A program made the position numbers and the translations under genes. Below the pieces are notes generated by a model. That model was not told the DNA's origin, made no database searches, and worked only from the letters and a program-made list of their open reading frames with translations. 64,000 nt of DNA from an uncultured Prevotellaceae bacterium (GTDB lineage Bacteria > Bacteroidota > Bacteroidia > Bacteroidales > Bacteroidaceae): NCBI GenBank assembly GCA_902789415.1, contig CADAOD010000021.1:5030-69029 (forward strand), given 5' to 3'. Shown piece after piece: positions 20,611 to 54,263 of this stretch (position 1 is its first letter; every line of letters starts with the position of its first letter).

Positions 20611-20700
20611 GGAAGGATGGGTGAGTGGCTGAAACCAGCAGTTTGCTAAACTGCCGTACGGGTTCCCGTACCGGGGGTTCGAATCCCCCTCCTTCCGCCA
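20611..20700 (+). tRNA. tRNA-Ser(GCT)
   Basis: Cloverleaf with long variable arm, anticodon loop TT-GCT-AA, GTTCGAATC T-arm, encoded CCA. Confidence 0.95.
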
Positions 20701-20736
20701 AAGGAGATCTCCGAGATTTGTCTTTGACATGCTGTT

Positions 20737-20808
20737 GGTCGATTCATCTAATGGTTAGGATACAAGATTCTCAATCTTGGCATAGGGGTTCGATTCCCCT
20801 ATCGACTA
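20737..20808 (+). tRNA. tRNA-Glu(CTC), copy 1
   Basis: Anticodon stem-loop CAAGA-TT-CTC-AA-TCTTG, GTTCGATTC T-arm. Confidence 0.93.
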
Positions 20809-20899
20809 CAACATCTTTTACATTTTGGTCGATTGAGTTTTCAACTCTATCTCCCTCGCGACTCGGCAATTCAAGTAAACTTGATTGCGCTCGCTGCTC

Positions 20900-20971
20900 G
20901 GTCGATTCATCTAATGGTTAGGATACAAGATTCTCAATCTTGGCATAGGGGTTCGATTCCCCTATCGACTA
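20900..20971 (+). tRNA. tRNA-Glu(CTC), copy 2; integration target
   Basis: Identical to copy 1 over 72 nt; 3' end duplicated at 54504-54518. Confidence 0.93.
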
Positions 20972-20972
20972 C
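20958..20972 (+). repeat. attL core
   Basis: TCCCCTATCGACTAC, same as 54504-54518. Confidence 0.9.
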
Positions 20973-39140: not shown

Positions 39141-39267
39141 TAGAATAGAGAGTAAAAACATAGGGATTTCCCTTTGATATATAGGGATATTCCATTGATA
39201 ATCAGGAATTTATTATGTATCTTTGCAATAAAGAACAGAAGTATTAACCAATTTAAAACTAACAATT

Positions 39268-39801
39268 ATGAAAAAGAGTATTTTTCTGAATTTGATGACA
39301 GTAGCCATGATGGCTGCTATGTGTGTAACCTTTACAGCCTGTGGCGGTGATGACGGTGACAGCACGCCAGGTAAGCCAGACGGTCCGTCAGGACAAACAG
39401 GCAGCACAGAGTATGTAACCCCGTGTCTGGACTTTGGCAGCTCTATAGCACATGTGAAGGAGTATATGTCCGGCACCATCTGGCAGCTGAACGAGAACAG
39501 TAACGACGCTGTTCTGCTCTACATGAACAACCAGGCGACGACAGTGGTAAACTACATGTTCATCAACTCTAAGCTTCACATGACAACTGTTACCTATAAC
39601 GGCGGCGGTGAGAGCAAGGCAAATGCCTTCAAAGCGGAGATAGAGAAATTGTATGGCGTGACGATGACGCGCGAAAATGACCCCGACAACCCTGCCCAGT
39701 TCTCATATCATTGTACGGTAACCGTCAACCAGAAGAGCGTTGTTATCATGATGACCTGCTACGCACAAGGAATCAACATCCTTTATAGTTTGCCAGATTG
39801 A
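39268..39801 (+). CDS. Hypothetical lipoprotein
   Basis: Lipobox TFTAC-GGDD; promoter TATCTTTG near 39219. Confidence 0.75.
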   Translation: MKKSIFLNLMTVAMMAAMCVTFTACGGDDGDSTPGKPDGPSGQTGSTEYVTPCLDFGSSIAHVKEYMSGTIWQLNENSNDAVLLYMNNQATTVVNYMFINSKLHMTTVTYNGGGESKANAFKAEIEKLYGVTMTRENDPDNPAQFSYHCTVTVNQKSVVIMMTCYAQGINILYSLPD

Positions 39802-39920
39802 GACATGAAGAATGACAATATGAGCAGGCGTGACAATGAGCATGATGCCGACTACCTGCGACACCTCGACGAAGTGCTGCAGGAAGAGGAACAAGCACAC
39901 ACAGACTATCTCGACTGATT

Positions 39921-40118
39921 ATGGATGCCAACTACTATAGCAGCTATCTGAAGGTATATCTTACCGATGCCGGTGATGCCCGAAAGGATGATGAAGACTT
40001 CATCAGTTCCAGGGCCGATGCAGCATCAGAAGAGTATGAGGTGCAGCGCCGTGCCGGTGCTCCACCCCCATGTGCCCAGGAAATGGCAATGTCAGTCCTG
40101 ATGGTAGGGTTAGAATAG
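39921..40118 (+). CDS. DUF1896-like small protein
   Basis: YYSSYLKVYL..FISSRADAASEEYE....G.....AQEMAMSVLMVGL pattern of Bacteroidota conjugative elements. Confidence 0.7.
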   Translation: MDANYYSSYLKVYLTDAGDARKDDEDFISSRADAASEEYEVQRRAGAPPPCAQEMAMSVLMVGLE

Positions 40119-40127
40119 CGATCTTTG

Positions 40128-41297
40128 AAACACTGAGATATAGCCTGGCATGCGGCACTTGAGCGATGGGGTTACGCTATTAAGTTAAGTGTTCTGTGAT
40201 TCCATGAGCGTAGCGGTGCCAGGCCCTTATATCGCCGAAGGACTGGATAACGGTTACTGCACCTATTTCTTCTGGAGCATGACTCCGTTTGTGATGGATG
40301 CAGGTTAAGACGTCGAGCTTAGGGGGCGTTCATACGAACGAGCATCTATGACCAGTGAAGGCGATTACTACTGGAGGTTATGCTGTCATTGTCATTATAG
40401 GATTGAATTGCATTAGCAAGGTCTCTCCGCGACGCAGCATATACCTCCATTTTGGGACTTGCGGAGGGGTTCGTCAACAACTGCCCCTGTATGACCATCC
40501 CATGAGCGAGCGGTGCCAGGTTCCTATGGGGAATGTCGGCACTTGAGCCTCCTTTTTGGTGAGCGTTGCGATTCCCCGTCATGGGAAAAGCGGGTGAGAG
40601 TCCCGCACAAGGGGAATGGCAGTTGCTTTGAAAGGTGATCCCACACCCGGTACGACGATTCCCCGTTCTTCTTGGAGGGTTGCGCCAGAGCGTCAAGGGC
40701 GTAAGGAGTGGGGCAAGTACATCACTCGCTGAGAGGCCCCTCCATCTACTGGAGAGTGCAGTATAGGTATTCACAGGTGCTACGGCACGTCTGCGAGGGT
40801 CTGAGGCAAACGCCGATAACGACTGGAAAAACGGCTCTCCATTCTTCTGGGAGTCATTGCCATTATAGGATAGAATTGCATCCGCAAGGTCTTTCCGCGG
40901 CGCTCCCATCTTCTCAGGACGGATGTAATAGTCCTGAAGCTGCACACTGCCGGGTGGAGTAGTTCCCTGCATCCGGGTTCTTCCACTGAAGACAAGCCAG
41001 ACAGGAGTGCAGCATTTTTGGAAACGCCATGTACGCCTCGGCGGAATCGGACTGCCGTCGATCTTGGGTTTCCATCGGGAGGATATTCACGGGAACTGTG
41101 TCCGTGCAGAAGTGCCTCCCGACCTATTGGAGAGTGCGGATATAGGCGAATCCGGGTGCTTCAATGGCACGTCTGGGTGTCCCTGAGATAGCATCAATAA
41201 TGGGTGGAAAAACGGCTCTCCAATCTACTGAGCTGCTGCCGTTGGCTACGCGATTAGGTTCGTGTTCTGTAGTTCGACGGTGGCAGTGTTTTTTTTG
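40128..41297 (+). ncRNA. Candidate large modular structured RNA (or RNA-motif array)
   Basis: No credible ORF; duplicated motifs with compensatory changes; G-U pairs favour the + strand; ends in a hairpin plus T8 at 41235-41296. Confidence 0.6.
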
Positions 41298-41455
41298 ACT
41301 CTGTGCTTTTTGGACAGGACGTCGGCGAATCTGCAAGGGGTGCTGCTCGATGGGAGGAACCCTTTCCAATTCTTTCCAATTCTTGCAAAATTGGAAAGAA
41401 TTATATATATTGGGCGCAGTCCGCTATTACCGATTCCAGAGAGAATAAAGACTTG

Positions 41456-41546
41456 TTAACAATTATCAGCCGCTGGCTGGGAATTATAAAAATATGTAAA
41501 AGAACTGTTGAAAAGTTGTTTTACATTAACTTTTTCGTAACTTTGC
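41456..41546 (+). promoter_or_regulatory. 91-bp promoter cassette, copy 1
   Basis: 85/91 identical to 42681-42771; ends in a TAnnTTTG box. Confidence 0.8.
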
Positions 41547-41604
41547 ACTCAAAGAACGTGGACTTGATGCTCCACAACCATTGTATATTCAAATATTTGA
41601 TAAA

Positions 41605-42285
41605 ATGAAACATGTACTTTTATTATTAGTGTTTTTTGCCATTCCTGCTATCAGTATTGCCCAGGGAGCAGATGATTTCTTCACCAGTCCTGAATTTAAG
41701 GCAGACATTCAAGAGTACAACAAGACAACGAAAGGCAGTAACAAGAAGCGTTGCCAGATGTTGATGAAGTTAGAAAATCATATGAACGATGAAGGTGAAA
41801 TCCAATATCAGTACGTGTTTCATGCCAAGGACACCCTGAATAGAGCACAGCTCATGGAGATTGTCAAGCGATGGGCCAAGACGAATTATAAGAATCTTGA
41901 GAAATCGACTATCAGCGAGACGGACAGTACCGCTGAATATACAGGCTATTTTATGAATGTCGGTCAGGTTATGGGTGCTTTTAAGGCCGTCATCATCAAT
42001 GCAATTTCGTATGTCCTCATCGAAGCCAAGGCCGACAGGATTAGAGTGACGGCTACCGTCAGACACTACTCCCTGGCACAGGGAAGTGTTTCCGGTGCCA
42101 AGACTGCCCTAACCTTACCAAAAGATGTTTATCCATATGCTGATTCATCTAATCAAAGTACCTATGCTCAGGCATATATTAACTGTCACTATAATCTTAT
42201 AACAACAGTTGCCGGTATTCTGATGTATCTTAACAAGAATTACCCTTCTTTCCCTGCTAAGGAAAAGAAGAATGATGATTGGTGA
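41605..42285 (+). CDS. Secreted DUF4468-like protein (start moved to ATG 41605)
   Basis: Signal peptide; YQYVF..LNRAQLMEIVKRWA..IEAKADRIRVT. Confidence 0.6.
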   Translation: MKHVLLLLVFFAIPAISIAQGADDFFTSPEFKADIQEYNKTTKGSNKKRCQMLMKLENHMNDEGEIQYQYVFHAKDTLNRAQLMEIVKRWAKTNYKNLEKSTISETDSTAEYTGYFMNVGQVMGAFKAVIINAISYVLIEAKADRIRVTATVRHYSLAQGSVSGAKTALTLPKDVYPYADSSNQSTYAQAYINCHYNLITTVAGILMYLNKNYPSFPAKEKKNDDW

Positions 42286-42360: not shown

Positions 42361-42680
42361 CTTTGAAATATAACAGGTTATCTTGCCTATTTGGGTAAGA
42401 TTATCTTACCCATGTACCCTGTATCAGATCAGCCTACTAAAATATAAGGTGCTCCTTGTATTTTACATCAATTTTGATGTATTTGAAGGTGTAAAGATAT
42501 TTTATTTCGCCCGATTTTAGGGGGATATAACTACCTCACCTGCAGTCTGTTTCGCGTTCTACGGGCTTTATATGAGGTCATTTTCTCCGTCGACATCGGT
42601 AAAATGCCCGTTTCGGCAAAATACTTGACAATATTCAGTTGGCGTATCTTTTACCGATGCAGGAAAGGAATTTGTACCTA

Positions 42681-42771
42681 TTAACAGTTATCAGCCACTG
42701 GCTGGGAATTATAAAAATATGTAAAAGAACTGTTGAAAAGATGTTTTGCATTATCTTTTTCGTACCTTTGC
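42681..42771 (+). promoter_or_regulatory. 91-bp promoter cassette, copy 2
   Basis: Direct repeat of 41456-41546; ends in TACCTTTG. Confidence 0.8.
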
Positions 42772-42793
42772 TGTCAGATAATAACTCTCAGCA

Positions 42794-45562
42794 ATGAAAT
42801 CAGACAAACAAATCGCCAAAGATGCTGCTGAATTTGCAGACCGTTGGCAGGGAGAAGGGTACGAAAAAGGTCAAAGCCAGATGTTTTGGAGTGACCTTCT
42901 GACGAAAGTTTATGGGATAGAAGATCTTACGTCTTTCGTCCGTTTCGAGGAACAGGTGAAGAGTGATATATCAACCACCAACTTCATCGATGTTCGTATT
43001 CCATCAACGAAGGTGTTCATAGAGCAGAAGTCCATCAACAAAGACCTACGTGCTCCCATCAGGCAAAGTGACGGTAATTTCCTGACACCATTTCAGCAGG
43101 TGAAGAGGTATGCCAACGATGTAAGCTATTCACAGCGTCCACGTTGGATAATTACCTGCAATTTCAAAGAGTTCCTGGTCTATGACATGGAACAGCCGAA
43201 CAGCGAGCCAGAAAGTATTTTACTGAAAGACCTCGGTACCGATTATTATCGTCTGAAGTTCCTCGTCGATGAAAAGAGCGAGCATATCAGCAAGGAGATG
43301 GAGGTTTCAATGGCAGCGGGAGAAATTGTAGGACGTATCTACGATGCGCTGCTGAAGCAATATGATGACAATTCACCAGAAGCTCTGCGATGGCTGAATA
43401 TCCTTTGTGTCCGCATTGTGTTCTGTCTGTATGCTGAGGATGCTGGCATCTTCAGCCGAGACCAATTCCATAACTATCTGGCGAAATTTGACGCAGAAGG
43501 AATGCGGCAAGCACTACTGCAGTTATTCCAAACGCTGAACACAAAGGAAGGTAACAGGAGCAAATTCTTACGAGACGACCTGAAAGCATTCCCATATACC
43601 AATGGAGGATTGTTTGCTGCTGAAATCGAGATACCTCAGTTTACGGATGAGCTGCGTAAGGTTTTATTGCATAATGCCAGTCTCGATTTCGATTGGAGCA
43701 AGATATCCCCCACCATCTTTGGAGCCGTTTTTGAATCGACATTGAACCCGGAAACGAGACGTGCAGGAGGTATGCACTACACCAGTATTGAGAATATTCA
43801 TAAAGTCATTGATGCCCTATTCCTGAATACACTCAGGAAGGAGTTCGAGACCATTCTTGAAGAGAAAGTAGAGAAGACCAGGAACAGGCTGCTTGATGCC
43901 TTTCAAGACAAGCTGGCCAGTCTGGTTTTCTTCGATCCCGCTTGTGGCTCCGGCAACTTCCTGACGGAAACATACCTAAGTCTGCGCCGTCTGGAGAATG
44001 ACGTCATTCGTGCCAGATATCACGGACAGGCATTTATTGGTTTTGAAGATAATTCGCCCATCAAGGTAAGTATAAGCCAGTTCTACGGCATAGAGATAAA
44101 CGACTTTGCCGTGACAGTGGCCACCACTGCCCTTTGGATTAGTGAGGCCCAGATGTTGGCTGAGACAGAGAAGATTATTGACTTTAATGATGACTTCCTT
44201 CCACTAAAGACCTACACGAATATTACGGAAGGTAATGCCCTACGCATAGAATGGAAGGATGTAGTTCCTGTAGAGCGACTGTCATATATCATCGGCAATC
44301 CTCCATTTGTTGGCCATCAATGGCGCAATGAGACGCAGCAGGAGGACATGAATCTTGTATTCGCAGATGCAAAGAAACATGGGAAACTTGACTACGTAGC
44401 TTGTTGGTATAAAAAAGCAGCTGATTTAATGCAGAACACACACATCAAATGTGCTTTCGTTTCAACAAACAGTATAACACAAGGTGAAAGTGTGGCGGCA
44501 TTGTGGGAATTGCTTTTTGGGCAGTTTTATGTGGAAATTCAGTTCGCTTATCGAACATTCAACTGGACAAGTGAGGCTTCTCTTAAAGCAGCCGTGCATT
44601 GTGTCATTATAGGTTTTACATGTTACCACGATAAGGAGCAGAAGATTCTTTTTGATAACGACAAGCTATCTTATGTTGAGCATATCAATGGATATCTCTT
44701 AGCGGCTCCCGACATCTTCATTCAGTCAAGAGGGAAACCCCTCAATGCTGATTTACCCATTATGAGCAAAGGAAGTCAGCCAACAGATGGAGGAAATCTG
44801 ATTCTGTCGGTAGAGGAGCGTGAGGAACTAATAAAAGCCTTTCCTGATGCTGAAGTTTTCGTCAAACGTTACATGGGAAGCGATGAGTTTATAAATAACA
44901 AGTATAGATATTGCTTATGGCTAAAGGGGGTCGCACCATCTGATTATAGGAAGATTTCCCCAGTTATGGAACGTTTAAAGAAGGTTGCTGAGACAAGATC
45001 CAAGAGTCCAACGGCATCGGTGAGACGCGATGCAGATATTCCCATGCTATTCACTCAGATTCGACAACCCGAAAGTAATTACCTTGCTGTTCCTGAAGTT
45101 TCTTCACAACGTCGTAGGTATATTCCTATAGGATATATGTCACCAGATGTCATATCGAGTAGTAAACTTATTCTGATTCCCGATGCTTCCATTTACATGT
45201 TTGGCGTGATGACGTCTAATGTTCACATGGCATGGATGCGTGTTGTTTGTGGGCGTTTGAAAAGCGATTATAGCTATTCTCCAGCCGTTTACAACAACTT
45301 CCCATGGCCATCACCCACGGATGAACAGAAAGTAAAGATTGAGCAGACTGCGCAAGCTATACTCGATGCCCGTGCGCTTTATCCGGAAAGCAGTTTGGCA
45401 GATCTCTATGACGAAGTGGCTATGCCACCAGAGCTGCGAAAAGCGCACCAGGCTAACGACCGTGCCGTCATGGAGGCCTATGGATGGAAAGCTGACAGGA
45501 ATTTCACTGAAAGCGTTTGTGTGGCTGAACTATTCAAGCTATACCAGAATTTGGCAAAATGA
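42794..45562 (+). CDS. MmeI-like (Type IIL/IIG) fused restriction endonuclease - N6-adenine methyltransferase
   Basis: N-terminal nuclease (FIDV..VFIEQKS), GMHYT, FDPACGSGNFL, IGNPPF, C-terminal TRD (H.AW.R.VCGRLKSDY.YS...YNNFPWP). Confidence 0.9.
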   Translation: MKSDKQIAKDAAEFADRWQGEGYEKGQSQMFWSDLLTKVYGIEDLTSFVRFEEQVKSDISTTNFIDVRIPSTKVFIEQKSINKDLRAPIRQSDGNFLTPFQQVKRYANDVSYSQRPRWIITCNFKEFLVYDMEQPNSEPESILLKDLGTDYYRLKFLVDEKSEHISKEMEVSMAAGEIVGRIYDALLKQYDDNSPEALRWLNILCVRIVFCLYAEDAGIFSRDQFHNYLAKFDAEGMRQALLQLFQTLNTKEGNRSKFLRDDLKAFPYTNGGLFAAEIEIPQFTDELRKVLLHNASLDFDWSKISPTIFGAVFESTLNPETRRAGGMHYTSIENIHKVIDALFLNTLRKEFETILEEKVEKTRNRLLDAFQDKLASLVFFDPACGSGNFLTETYLSLRRLENDVIRARYHGQAFIGFEDNSPIKVSISQFYGIEINDFAVTVATTALWISEAQMLAETEKIIDFNDDFLPLKTYTNITEGNALRIEWKDVVPVERLSYIIGNPPFVGHQWRNETQQEDMNLVFADAKKHGKLDYVACWYKKAADLMQNTHIKCAFVSTNSITQGESVAALWELLFGQFYVEIQFAYRTFNWTSEASLKAAVHCVIIGFTCYHDKEQKILFDNDKLSYVEHINGYLLAAPDIFIQSRGKPLNADLPIMSKGSQPTDGGNLILSVEEREELIKAFPDAEVFVKRYMGSDEFINNKYRYCLWLKGVAPSDYRKISPVMERLKKVAETRSKSPTASVRRDADIPMLFTQIRQPESNYLAVPEVSSQRRRYIPIGYMSPDVISSSKLILIPDASIYMFGVMTSNVHMAWMRVVCGRLKSDYSYSPAVYNNFPWPSPTDEQKVKIEQTAQAILDARALYPESSLADLYDEVAMPPELRKAHQANDRAVMEAYGWKADRNFTESVCVAELFKLYQNLAK

Positions 45563-52913: not shown

Positions 52914-54263
52914 CTATTGCTTGTCAAACAATAACATTGCATCCTCTTTAGCCTTGTCAGCTATTTCAATGTATGGTTTCATGGCCGAATAATCGCTGTG
53001 TCCTGTCCATTTCATCACTATCTGAGGGGCGATGCCAAGCATCAGAGCGTTACAGATGAAGGTTCTACGTCCTGCATGAGTGGACATCAGCTGATACTTA
53101 GCATAGACTTCGTCTACACGTTGGCTGCCACGATAATAAGTGACAGGAATAGCCTCGTTAAAGCCAACAATCTCAGCCATCTCCTTCAGATAGTCATTCA
53201 TTCGCTGGTTGCTGATAACAGGAAGGACCTTATCATACGGAAAATTATCCTTTCGGTATTTGTTCAAGATAGCTTTGGCATACTTGTTCAATTCGATCTT
53301 CAAGGAGTCACCGGTTTTTACGGTCGTTATTTGAATATAGCCAGGGAAAAGATTGCTTCGCTTTAGGTTTTCGACGTCAGAATAACGTAAAGAAGTGAAA
53401 CAGCAGAAGCAGAACACATCCCTAACACGTTCAAGAGTGGACTTTTCAAGCCCCACACGCTTCTCGTATTCATATCCGTGGACATCGACAAGGGTCAGCT
53501 TCGTTCCGACGTCAGGAAAGCTAAATTCATAGAGCTTCATCAGTTCGTCCCAATCCAGGAAGACGATAGGTTTCTTAGTCTTCTGAAGTTTTGGCCTAAA
53601 ATTGGCCTTTATGGACGTGTAACCTTTATTTTCTGCCCACCGGATGAAGTATCGCAGACGGCTTGTGTATTTTTCAATCGTAGAATTACGTAGAAACTTT
53701 ACCTCACGAAGAAAATCTACAAAGTACGTAGTTCCATCTTCGTTAAAATAATCGATGGAGGTTACATGTTTATAGTCAAAGAAATCAGTCATGTGCTTCT
53801 GGAACGACTTCATACTTTTGCTCGTTGCCAAACGCCAGCTATTTTTGTCTTTCTGTTCTTCCAAGAAATCTGACAACCGTTTTCTGATGTCATCTGGTAG
53901 TTCTTCTTTCTCTTCAGTTGTTTCTACCTTCTGCTTTTTGAAGTTCTCGTTATAGATGCTTTTCAGGTCACCCACAGTCTGACCATTTCTCCGTAGTTCG
54001 TCCTCATATTCACTAAAAAAGCTATCTATACGTTTCAACTTACTGTTTAACTCGCGGGCAGTAAGAGAACCTATCATCACTGGTTTACCAGCGTATGAAA
54101 GTAGAATTCTCTGAGTGTCCTGATTCCAGTACTCAGGTTTTATAGAGAAACCTGCAGTCGTGGTGAGGCGCTTGCCTTGAATACAGATAGCACATCTCAC
54201 TGTAACGTCGCCATCTCCACGCTTCTTCTCTCTGGTTTTATCTAAGAAAAATCTGACTGACAT
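52914..54263 (-). CDS. Tyrosine integrase
   Basis: Arm-binding N-terminus; SLRYSD, TVKT, HAGRRTF, WTGHS..MKPY catalytic R-K-H-R-H-Y. Confidence 0.95.
   Translation of the reverse strand: MSVRFFLDKTREKKRGDGDVTVRCAICIQGKRLTTTAGFSIKPEYWNQDTQRILLSYAGKPVMIGSLTARELNSKLKRIDSFFSEYEDELRRNGQTVGDLKSIYNENFKKQKVETTEEKEELPDDIRKRLSDFLEEQKDKNSWRLATSKSMKSFQKHMTDFFDYKHVTSIDYFNEDGTTYFVDFLREVKFLRNSTIEKYTSRLRYFIRWAENKGYTSIKANFRPKLQKTKKPIVFLDWDELMKLYEFSFPDVGTKLTLVDVHGYEYEKRVGLEKSTLERVRDVFCFCCFTSLRYSDVENLKRSNLFPGYIQITTVKTGDSLKIELNKYAKAILNKYRKDNFPYDKVLPVISNQRMNDYLKEMAEIVGFNEAIPVTYYRGSQRVDEVYAKYQLMSTHAGRRTFICNALMLGIAPQIVMKWTGHSDYSAMKPYIEIADKAKEDAMLLFDKQ

What the first reader, a model, noticed from the sequence alone, without database searches (positions are those of the whole stretch)
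40750..41223. Motif B duplicated with covarying hairpins
Seen: copies at 40750-40841 and 41127-41223 are closed by TGGAGAG/CTCTCCA. GTGC/GCAC is kept with different loops (TACG vs TTCAATG). CTGA-GGC-AAAC-GCC-GATAA becomes CTGA-GAT-AGC-ATC-AATAA, a two-pair swap. The flanking stem TTCACAG/CTGCGAG becomes ATCCGG/CTGGGT. An unpaired-looking 18-mer TGGAAAAACGGCTCTCCA is invariant. Inference: a ~95-nt fold with conserved junction nucleotides, as in aptamers, ribozymes or protein-binding modules.
Basis: partly seen in the sequence, partly recalled or inferred. Interest (0 to 1): 0.7.

Follow-up and report, generated by a model that had tools for sequence, protein, structure and literature searches.

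The report
New modular three-way-junction RNA family
The two "motif B" copies are real members of a previously undescribed ~95-nt three-way-junction RNA domain that rumen Prevotella-type mobile elements express, alone or strung together with other RNA domains, and whose job is still unknown.

Summary
Motif B (40750-40841 and 41128-41222, + strand) is a conserved RNA three-way junction. A covariance model finds 59 copies (47 distinct) in 32 sources. 93.5% of cells are paired and 14 of 24 pairs show double changes. An independent MAFFT/RNAalifold run recovers the same helices. G-U far outnumbers A-C, so the + strand is the one that folds.

The two copies lie in a 1.2 kb, G+C-rich, ORF-free RNA (40120-41296). 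It follows a 65-aa half-DUF1896 ORF inside an integrative mobilisable element of a rumen Bacteroidales bacterium. This RNA is a string of self-closed domains (C, X, A, E, F, D, B, G) that ends in a hairpin plus U8. The order and number of domains differ between related loci.

Elsewhere B has its own Bacteroidetes-type promoter and terminator, so it can be a free-standing small RNA. Contigs from eight rumen metatranscriptomes match the RNA region far better than the neighbouring genes.

There is no match in Rfam 15, PLSDB plasmids, GenBank phages, IMG/VR or the paper library. The function is not shown. My best guess is a trans-acting, multivalent binding RNA. A new ribozyme, an aptamer or a base-pairing sRNA remain open.

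The parts
39268..39801 (+). 177-aa lipoprotein-like ORF. It is the first gene of the transcription unit that runs into the RNA, and a Bacteroidetes-type -7 box (TATCTTTG) lies at about 39218-39226.
   Evidence: ORF list. No Pfam family. Homologues lie 430-940 nt upstream of motif B on the same strand in 12 loci. 51 relatives in the protein collection. The promoter is inferred from the sequence only (D13).
39921..40118 (+). U: a 65-aa ORF equal to the N-terminal half of DUF1896. The RNA starts about 20 nt after its stop codon.
   Evidence: Pfam PF08989, E = 2.2e-12, profile positions 6-68 of 142. The 65-67-aa form is conserved in at least 15 loci, including loci without any RNA array (L098, L100), so it is not a recent truncation.
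40120..41296 (+). Multi-domain non-coding RNA ('array'), G+C 0.51-0.56 against about 0.40 in the flanks. Domains: C1 40140-40228, X 40229-40345, A1 40370-40455, E 40456-40496, C2 40497-40560, F 40561-40672, D 40673-40746, B1, A2 40847-40913, G 40914-41113, B2, T.
   Evidence: Composition. Internal repeats. The same domains occur in other orders and numbers in 30+ loci. Predicted self-closed domains. Metatranscriptome contigs fall on this stretch. No Rfam family.
40750..40841 (+). Motif B copy 1. P1 40750-40757/40834-40841 (plus C40759-G40833). P2 40771-40780/40785-40796 with bulge G40789 T40790 and loop TACG. P3 40799-40801/40821-40823. P4 40805-40807/40812-40814. J1/2 40760-40770. J3/1 40824-40831.
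   Evidence: Covariance model R1, 122 bits, E = 1e-30. Pair counts. P1 extension.
41128..41222 (+). Motif B copy 2. P1 41128-41135/41215-41222 plus C41137-G41214 and G41138-C41213. P2 41150-41159/41167-41178 with bulge G41171 T41172 and loop TTCAATG. P3 41181-41183/41202-41204. P4 41187-41189/41193-41195.
   Evidence: R1, 104.5 bits, E = 7e-26. Pair counts.
40847..40913 (+). Domain A copy 2 (copy 1 at 40370-40455). It is a self-closed hairpin domain that shares with B the submotif AUAGG followed by a hairpin with a 2-nt bulge on its 3' strand.
   Evidence: Repeat D2. Folds with z = -2.8 and -4.6. The closing helix takes three different paired sequences in 9 copies. A is a free-standing gene with promoter and U-run in L027 and L087.
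41226..41296 (+). Domain T: a long hairpin (GCTGCTGCCGTTGG ... CGACGGTGGCAG) followed by T8. This is the likely intrinsic terminator and 3' end of the RNA.
   Evidence: Read from the sequence and part of the predicted fold. T follows B or G in more than 10 loci and follows the free-standing B genes. The simple terminator scan did not list it because its loop exceeds 8 nt.
40346..40972 (-). 208-aa ORF on the opposite strand. Judged spurious.
   Evidence: No Pfam family. Equivalent ORFs in other loci vary from 70 to 208 aa and follow the module shuffling. B copies differ in length by numbers that are not multiples of three.

Best explanation
**What it is.** Motif B is an autonomous, roughly 95-nt RNA domain that folds on the + strand into a three-way junction.
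- P1 is a 9-11 bp closing helix.
- P2 is a hairpin with a conserved G-U pair next to a 2-nt bulge.
- P3 is a short helix that carries a UGA / GAUAAY loop and an optional variable hairpin, P4.
- Two purine-rich junction strands (GAAUAGG and UGGAAAAA) are nearly invariant.

**Where it sits.** An integrative mobilisable element of rumen Prevotellaceae transcribes it. It appears either as a small RNA with its own promoter and terminator, or, as in this window, twice within a 1.2 kb RNA. That RNA is a chain of self-closed domains joined by short pyrimidine linkers and ended by a terminator.

**Shown.**
- The fold is supported by covariation.
- The + strand is the folding strand.
- The domains are modular and shuffled between loci.
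- The region is transcribed.
- No known family matches.

**Inferred.** The RNA acts in trans. The conserved junction core of B is a specific binding surface. One to four B domains per transcript, together with other domain types, would make the RNA a multivalent binder (decoy, sponge or scaffold) for a host or element factor, most likely a protein. Copy number and domain mix are reshuffled by recombination at the shared helix-plus-linker boundaries.
For: **Fold.**
- 59 copies (47 distinct), 93.5% of cells paired, 14 of 24 pairs with changes on both sides.
- 0 of 500 shuffles reach the observed values. Slid controls give 37-45% paired.
- MAFFT plus RNAalifold on 39 copies recovers P1, P2 and P3, with 13 of 16 pairs compensatory.
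- An extra covarying pair lies at the base of P2.
- P1 has six alternative paired sequences.

**Strand.** 99 G-U against 34 A-C cells. All copies in a locus lie on one strand.

**Conserved core, variable periphery.**. P4 is absent in some copies.

**Not a cis element.** B is followed by G, A, another B or the terminator T, and never by a conserved ORF.

**Free-standing genes.** A TAnnTTTG promoter box lies directly upstream and a hairpin plus U-run downstream in L064, L060, L027 and L099.

**Several copies per transcript.** Some are head-to-tail.

**Transcribed.** In eight rumen metatranscriptomes the matching contigs fall on 40.1-41.3 kb, reaching word depth 20-34 in the best run. The flanking genes mostly show 0-3 (up to about 8 in one run).

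**Element context.** tRNA genes, DnaB-type helicase, MobC, relaxase and integrase.
Against: - No partner is identified. No protein gene is consistently next to B apart from backbone genes of the element.
- The free-standing B genes sit in other neighbourhoods.
- A large, highly conserved junction core suits an aptamer or a ribozyme as well as a protein site.
- The P1 sequence is far more conserved than a helix needs and is shared by domains A, B and D. This points to recognition of the helix plus linker (processing), or to DNA-level recombination, rather than to the junction alone.
- The expression evidence comes from unstranded assembled contigs. These also recruit related elements at 90% identity or more, so neither the relative abundance nor the transcript ends are measured.
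Confidence: 0.45

Rival explanations
1. B is a small-molecule or ion aptamer. The RNA either senses a ligand or soaks it up (for example a nucleotide signal), with several aptamers per transcript.
For: Three-way junction with about 30 near-invariant junction-proximal nucleotides and free-varying loops. Tandem copies. In several loci B directly precedes the terminator domain T. GCCGUU in the 5' arm of T can pair with AACGGC of B (read).
Against: No conserved downstream gene and no evident alternative pairing that competes with P1. Most copies are internal and followed by other domains. The P1 sequence is conserved, which is unusual for aptamers. No Rfam riboswitch match, even at E = 10.
Confidence: 0.15
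2. B is a new class of self-cleaving ribozyme, or a signal for an endonuclease, that cuts the multi-domain transcript into single domains at the conserved helix-plus-linker boundaries.
For: Its size and conserved core are typical of small ribozymes. P2 has a conserved G-U pair next to a 2-nt bulge, a common metal-binding layout. All domains share UGGAG.../...CUCCA closing helices and UCUUCU-like linkers. It sits on a mobile element in multiple copies.
Against: No match to any known ribozyme class. Free-standing B and A genes have their own promoter and terminator and need no cutting. No read-end data were available, because only contigs were held.
Confidence: 0.12
3. B and its sister domains are base-pairing small RNAs. 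The conserved single strands (junction strands or pyrimidine linkers) act as seeds against purine-rich translation initiation regions of host or element mRNAs.
For: Small-RNA gene architecture with a Bacteroidetes promoter and an intrinsic terminator. Paralogous small-RNA families are known in Bacteroides (PMC11697453). The UCUUCU linkers are conserved.
Against: Known Bacteroides sRNAs of this type have an unstructured 5' seed followed by a terminator. B goes straight into a complex covarying fold. Its conserved strands lie inside a junction where they are poorly accessible. No target was sought or found.
Confidence: 0.12
4. The domains are passive structure. They would be a 3' UTR block against exonucleases, or an insulator or terminator region, with no specific partner.
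For: The array lies at the 3' end of an operon, is very G+C-rich and stable, and seems to outlast the coding part in RNA data.
Against: Passive hairpins do not need about 30 invariant unpaired or junction nucleotides, or a specific three-way junction kept through compensatory changes. Free-standing genes exist.
Confidence: 0.08
5. The selected feature is DNA. Candidates are a single-strand DNA fold used in transfer or replication priming, recombination sites, or a selfish mosaic repeat of the REP/BIME/BOX kind.
For: Mosaic order of modules. Boundaries are 7-bp inverted repeats around a 6-nt spacer (read). The element has a relaxase and a replicative helicase.
Against: About 10% of pairs are G-U and are strand-specific. 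Variant P1 helices covary within a domain and not with the neighbouring domain's arm. There are promoters, terminators and RNA contigs. The locus is single-copy in the 64 kb window. Only 4 of the 49 exact-18-mer matches among about 185,000 species genomes carry it.
Confidence: 0.07
6. The region encodes the 208-aa protein on the minus strand (40346-40972), and the repeats are protein repeats.
For: An ATG-started ORF of 208 aa exists.
Against: No Pfam family. Equivalent ORFs vary from 70 to 208 aa between loci. Copies differ by indels that are not multiples of three. The substitution pattern is RNA-type covariation.
Confidence: 0.01

Closest known systems
Orphan structured ncRNAs of mobile elements found by comparative genomics (ROOL, GOLLD, HEARO and the other motifs of Weinberg et al. 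2017, PMC5737381)
   Same: G+C-rich, ORF-free, covariation-supported fold. Carried by mobile DNA, seen in cow-rumen data, function unknown.
   Different: No sequence or structure match to any of them (Rfam 15). The unit is small (about 95 nt). It is combined with other domain types in variable order, whereas those RNAs are single large fixed architectures.
Protein-sequestering multi-repeat small RNAs (CsrB/RsmZ type)
   Same: Trans-acting RNA with its own terminator. Several copies of a binding module per transcript. Copy number varies between relatives. Each B has two single-stranded GGA(A) elements.
   Different: CsrB units are simple hairpins with GGA in the loop. B is a three-way junction with GGA in the junction strands. 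Bacteroides are reported to lack CsrA and Hfq (abstract of PMC13370968, listed). No partner is known here.
Tandem riboswitch aptamers (glycine; glutamine glnA RNA)
   Same: Three-stem junction with a conserved core. Tandem copies. The J1/2 sequence CGGAAUAGG recalls the glnA core, but this is from memory and was not tested.
   Different: Not in a 5' UTR, no expression platform, and no Rfam hit to these families at E = 10.
Type III toxin-antitoxin RNA arrays (ToxI and relatives)
   Same: Repeated structured RNA units on mobile DNA, followed by a terminator.
   Different: By established knowledge those units are short (about 36 nt in ToxI), near-identical and strictly tandem, and a ToxN-type toxin gene follows. 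Here the units are about 95 nt and mixed with other domains, and the downstream gene is not conserved.
Mosaic intergenic repeats (BIME/REP of E. coli, BOX of pneumococcus)
   Same: Modules combined in variable order and number in intergenic DNA. They can fold as RNA.
   Different: Those are dispersed in tens to hundreds of sites per genome and are simple palindromes. B is at one locus per element and has a covarying junction with a conserved unpaired core.

Membership tests
Any Rfam 15 family (riboswitches, self-cleaving ribozymes, RNase P, 5S, tRNA-like, pRNA, 6S, CsrB, FopS and others) | Covariance-model score at the family's gathering threshold, or at least E < 10 | tested here: not met
   Whole window at gathering threshold: only 3 tRNAs. 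39800-41600 at E <= 10: four chance-level hits, none in B. B1 alone: none. L099 B'-B-T: one fungal snoRNA at E = 0.25.
Cis-acting riboswitch | Conserved aptamer fold supported by covariation | tested here: met
Cis-acting riboswitch | Lies in the 5' UTR of a regulated gene, with an expression platform that competes with the aptamer | tested here: not met
   B is followed by domains G, A, B or T and by no conserved ORF. Free-standing copies end in a terminator with nothing conserved behind.
Cis-acting riboswitch | Specific ligand binding | not testable with these tools
   Needs in-line probing or ITC.
Self-cleaving ribozyme | Site-specific self-scission, seen as uniform RNA ends in reads or in vitro | not testable with these tools
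   Only assembled contigs of RNA runs were available. Their ends follow variant branch points.
Type III toxin-antitoxin antitoxin array | Strictly tandem, near-identical short repeats followed by a ToxN/AbiQ-type toxin gene | tested here: not met
   Heterogeneous domains in variable order. The downstream 234-aa ORF has no Pfam family and lies upstream of the array in other loci.
CsrB/RsmZ-type sponge | Many GGA motifs presented in hairpin loops | tested here: not met
   The GGA elements of B lie in J1/2 and J3/1, not in loops. The loops are GNRA/UNCG-like and variable.
CsrB/RsmZ-type sponge | CsrA-family partner in the host or element | not tested
   No host genome is available. No CsrA domain among the 38 window ORFs scanned with Pfam or PHROGs.
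REP/BIME/BOX mosaic repeats | Mosaic combination of modules | tested here: met
REP/BIME/BOX mosaic repeats | Dispersed at many intergenic sites of one genome | tested here: not met
   Only one locus in the 64 kb window. In the genome collection each positive genome gave one locus. This test is limited because whole genomes were not scanned with the model.
Bacteroides base-pairing sRNAs (GibS/FopS type) | Own promoter and intrinsic terminator | tested here: met
   L064, L060, L027, L099. Promoters are read from the sequence only.
Bacteroides base-pairing sRNAs (GibS/FopS type) | Unstructured conserved 5' seed followed by a terminator hairpin | tested here: not met
   The transcript enters P1 within a few nucleotides of the predicted start. 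FopS architecture as described in PMC11697453.

The most novel reading that the evidence does not exclude
Motif B is the catalytic or ligand-binding core of a new RNA class: a new self-cleaving ribozyme or a new aptamer. The shuffled multi-domain RNA would then be an RNA-only accessory weapon of the mobile element. For example, it could be a decoy or sponge against host defence factors or signalling nucleotides, diversified cassette-fashion by recombination at shared domain boundaries.
Probability: 0.2. Interest if true: 0.85.

Novelty: new variant of a known kind. Interest (0 to 1): 0.62.

Why it matters
Complex RNA folds with a large conserved core are rare. They have repeatedly turned out to be ribozymes, riboswitches or parts of ribonucleoprotein machines. 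This one has four notable properties:
- It is absent from Rfam 15.
- It is well supported by covariation.
- It is transcribed in cattle rumen communities.
- It rides on mobile elements of Prevotellaceae, a dominant rumen family whose RNA biology is almost unexplored.

Its 'beads on a string' layout is also unusual. Several domain types are each closed by the same kind of helix and reshuffled between closely related elements. That layout offers a natural system to study how modular RNAs evolve. A covariance model and defined coordinates now make both biochemical tests and wider database searches straightforward.

Tried and rejected
1. **IMG/VR viral contigs.** Scans with the 18-mer and with a degenerate 21-mer gave only chance matches inside unrelated coding regions (L001, L002, L094).
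2. **Genome collection.** 45 of the 49 exact 18-mer hits are chance matches. Only L016, L024, L027 and L045 are real.
3. **PLSDB plasmids and GenBank phages**, sensitive blastn: no match.
4. **Insertion into a full-length DUF1896 gene (intron-like).** Rejected. No C-terminal half lies downstream in any frame, and the 65-67-aa form exists without an array in L098 and L100.
5. **Group II intron.** One D1-D4 hit at E = 7.7 and a domain-V-like look of P2. No Rfam support.
6. **RNase P or rRNA mimicry.** I noticed shared words such as GGTGCCAGGT, GATAACNACTGGAAA and CAGGTGCGAAAGC. BLAST E-values are 0.07 or worse and the word counts are about what chance gives. The B model scores nothing in the E. 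coli rrn operon or rnpB with filters off.
7. **CRISPR-repeat mimicry (Cas12a or Cas13b handles).** Only loose resemblance from memory, with no testable support.
8. **Kink-turn in the P3/P4 loop.** The strand layout does not fit. A UAA/GAN-type loop is possible but untested.
9. **Guilt by association.** Clustering 714 neighbouring ORFs gave only element backbone genes (lipoprotein, U, SLOG protein, metallophosphatase, relaxase).
10. **Literature searches** by sequence string, DUF1896, Prevotella ncRNA and structured RNA on conjugative elements found nothing on this RNA.
11. **Raw-read RNA runs for end mapping.** None were offered, only contigs.

Full report
**1. The observation**

- Both copies start with TGGAGAG and end with CTCTCCA.
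- The hairpin GTGC/GCAC carries different loops (TACG and TTCAATG).
- GGC/GCC is replaced by GAT/ATC.
- TTCACAG/CTGCGAG is replaced by ATCCGG/CTGGGT.
- The 18-mer TGGAAAAACGGCTCTCCA is identical in both.

The 18-mer has two matches in the window against 0.05 expected, even with three mismatches allowed. The copies align at 72% over 119 nt with E = 1.5e-13.

**2. Surroundings in the window**

The copies lie in a stretch of about 1.2 kb (40120-41296). Its G+C is 0.51-0.56 against about 0.40 around it.

It has no credible ORF. The 208-aa minus-strand ORF has no Pfam family. Its counterparts in other loci vary from 70 to 208 aa.

The stretch contains other internal repeats:
- A at 40385-40435 and 40853-40903.
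- C at about 40147-40230 and 40497-40548.

It starts about 20 nt after a 65-aa ORF that matches the N-terminal half of DUF1896. It ends in a long hairpin followed by T8.

The wider context is an integrative mobilisable element of about 33 kb:
- tRNA-Ser and two tRNA-Glu genes at 20611-20972.
- A DnaB-type helicase.
- A SLOG-domain protein and an HNH nuclease.
- An MmeI-family restriction-modification enzyme and a relaxase.
- A MobC-like protein and a tyrosine integrase at 52914-54263.
- Housekeeping genes follow beyond 54.9 kb.

DNA runs that hold the stretch are bovine gut or rumen metagenomes.

**3. Homologues**

The exact 18-mer gave only chance hits in viral contigs.

Among one genome per species it gave 49 hits. 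Four carry the real motif:
- L016, uncultured Bacteroidales (RUG).
- L024, yak-rumen Prevotella.
- L027, Prevotellaceae (RUG).
- L045, Prevotella.

A degenerate 21-mer on metagenome contigs gave 42 loci, most of them real.

A covariance model was built from 11 copies. It finds 59 copies, 47 of them distinct, in 32 sources, at 32-122 bits.

Loci reached independently through the upstream lipoprotein gene gave three outcomes:
- An array with B (L097, L099).
- The 65-67-aa U ORF (the half-DUF1896 ORF of section 2) without any array (L098, L100).
- Neither (L102).

**4. The fold**

On the model-fitted alignment:
- 93.5% of cells are standard pairs.
- 14 of 24 pairs show changes on both sides.
- None of 500 column shuffles reaches the observed values.
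- Sliding the 3' partners by 1-3 columns drops pairing to 37-45%.

An alignment made by MAFFT alone, folded by RNAalifold, recovers P1, P2 and P3. There 13 of 16 pairs are compensatory.

Mutual information adds a pair at the base of P2, with 93% standard pairs of five types.

It is GGAGAGU(G)CG / CGGCUCUCC, and pairing is kept in several alternative versions:
- GAAGGU(G)CG / CGGCCUUC
- GGAGAGCUG / CGGCUCUCC
- GGAGA(A)GCUG / CAGCUCUCC
- GGAGAGUC / GGCUCUCC
- AAGAGUUGC / GCAACUCUU
- GCCAGUGGU / AGCCACUGGC

So 10 of the 18 'unpaired' bases are helix.

The remaining conserved single strands are J1/2 (GAAUAGG plus 3-4 nt), J2/3 (2-3 nt) and J3/1 (UGGAAAAA). P3 encloses UGA ... GAUAAY. The hairpin P4 inside that loop varies in length and is missing in some copies. 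The P2 loops are GNRA-like, UNCG-like or longer.

G-U cells (99) far outnumber A-C cells (34, of which 25 come from one misregistered pair). This means the + strand is the one selected to fold. All copies in a locus share one strand.

**5. The larger RNA**

Using the window's segments as queries, the same domains (C, X, A, E, F, D, B, G, T) recur in other loci in different orders and numbers.
- U, the half-DUF1896 ORF of section 2, usually comes first. T usually comes last.
- B is present one to four times, sometimes head-to-tail.
- RNA contigs show the same kind of alternative joints, for example C joined directly to B at 40750.

Each domain is closed by its own helix, commonly UGGAG.../...CUCCA. 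Neighbouring domains are joined by linkers such as UCUUCU or UCUAC. Variant closing helices covary within a domain and not with the neighbour's arm.

Domain A shares with B the element AUAGG followed by a hairpin with a 2-nt bulge on its 3' strand.

**6. Autonomy and expression**

In L064, L060, L027 and L099, a Bacteroidetes-type promoter box (TAnnTTTG) lies directly upstream of B and a hairpin plus U-run lies downstream. In L099 the promoter precedes a B'-B pair. These are free-standing small-RNA genes of about 180-250 nt.

Domain A is likewise a free-standing gene in L027 and L087.

In eight rumen metatranscriptome runs the matching contigs fall almost only on 40.1-41.3 kb.
- Word depth reaches 20-34 in the best runs.
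- The flanking genes mostly show 0-3, and up to about 8 in one run.

Caveats: the contigs are unstranded, their depth is a poor measure of abundance, and they also recruit related elements.

**7. What it is not**

- No Rfam 15 family matches at the gathering threshold, or at E <= 10 on small slices.
- Nothing similar is in PLSDB or in the phage collection.
- My impressions of similarity to RNase P RNA and to 16S/23S rRNA did not survive testing. BLAST words are at chance level. The B model scores nothing in the E. coli rrn operon or rnpB with filters off.
- It is not an insertion into a full DUF1896 gene.
- It is not a cis riboswitch, because no conserved ORF or expression platform follows it.
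- It is not a type III antitoxin array, because the domains are heterogeneous and no conserved toxin gene follows.
- It is not a dispersed REP/BIME/BOX-type repeat, because it occupies a single locus and has a covarying junction.
- The paper library holds nothing on it. The FopS/GibS sRNAs of Bacteroides have a different architecture.

**8. Mechanism**

Shown:
- B is a structured RNA domain under selection for its fold and for about 30 core nucleotides.
- It is made by a mobile element.
- It is used alone or in multiples within a modular RNA.

Inferred: it acts in trans through its junction core.

I rank a multivalent binding RNA (protein decoy, sponge or scaffold) first, at 0.45. My reasons are:
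- The copy number per transcript varies.
- Several domain types are combined.
- It is not tied to any downstream gene.
- The helix-plus-linker sequence is conserved across domain types, which suggests recognition by a common factor.

The rivals are:

| Rival | Confidence |
|---|---|
| Aptamer | 0.15 |
| New ribozyme or processing signal | 0.12 |
| Base-pairing sRNA | 0.12 |
| Passive structure | 0.08 |
| DNA-level element | 0.07 |
| Coding | 0.01 |

None of these can be decided with sequence tools alone.

**9. Novelty and verdict**

It is a new RNA family with a well-supported three-way-junction fold and an unusual shuffled multi-domain setting. I classify it as a new variant of a known kind (orphan structured ncRNAs of mobile elements), with interest 0.62. 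It would rank much higher if the core proves catalytic or ligand-binding, or if the array proves to be an RNA-only counter-defence device.

Noticed in passing
L027 5631-5716 (-) and L087 3495-3582 (-); window 40370-40455 and 40847-40913: Domain A of the array is a free-standing small-RNA gene elsewhere. A TTTG promoter box is followed by an about 75-nt self-closed hairpin domain and a run of 7-8 U. Its closing helix takes three different paired sequences across 9 copies.
   Followed up: partly
L099 7450-7500: A 'frame-only' variant of B. P1 (UGGAGAGUGC ... AAAAACGGCUCUCCA) is kept, but P2 and P3 are replaced by one small hairpin. This suggests the closing helix with its adjacent bases is a reusable frame.
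   Followed up: partly
window 39921-40118; L097 9522-9719; L098 1440-1643; L099 6918-7115; L100 6643-6840: A half-length DUF1896 ORF (65-67 aa, profile positions 6-68 of 142) is conserved as such in many related elements, with or without the RNA array behind it. It has no PDB relative.
   Followed up: partly
L099 7744-7985: A 79-aa ORF (MMNLKIGDIVKAKGYEIRLVV...) sits between two parts of an array. In L100 a 79-aa ORF, not compared with it, directly follows U with no array. Arrays therefore seem to occupy intergenic gaps of an operon.
   Followed up: no
window 41451-41556 and 42676-42781: A 106-nt direct repeat (89% identical) holding Bacteroidetes promoter boxes (TAACTTTG / TACCTTTG) lies upstream of both the 234-aa secreted-protein ORF (41581-42285) and the MmeI-family gene (42794-45562).
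   Followed up: no
window 41368-41402: A perfect 14-nt inverted repeat (AATTCTTTCCAATT / AATTGGAAAGAATT, 7-nt spacer) lies just after the RNA's terminator. RNA contigs from other variants break or rearrange here.
   Followed up: no
window 20611-20972 and 52914-54263: tRNA-Ser(GCT) plus two copies of tRNA-Glu(CTC) on one side and a tyrosine integrase on the other are the likely limits of an element of about 33 kb. The attachment-site repeats were not looked for.
   Followed up: no
window 42794-45562: A complete MmeI-family type IIL restriction-modification enzyme (all five MmeI domains, E down to 8e-90) lies 1.5 kb downstream of the RNA.
   Followed up: no
window 40799-40823; L069 6775-6859; L016 747-828: The P3 hairpin without P4 has a 9-nt loop UGAAAUAAU. 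This resembles the 9-nt loop UGAGAGGAU of the hairpin GGUC-UGAGAGGAU-GACC, which I recall from E. coli 16S rRNA. The similarity is at chance level statistically.
   Followed up: partly
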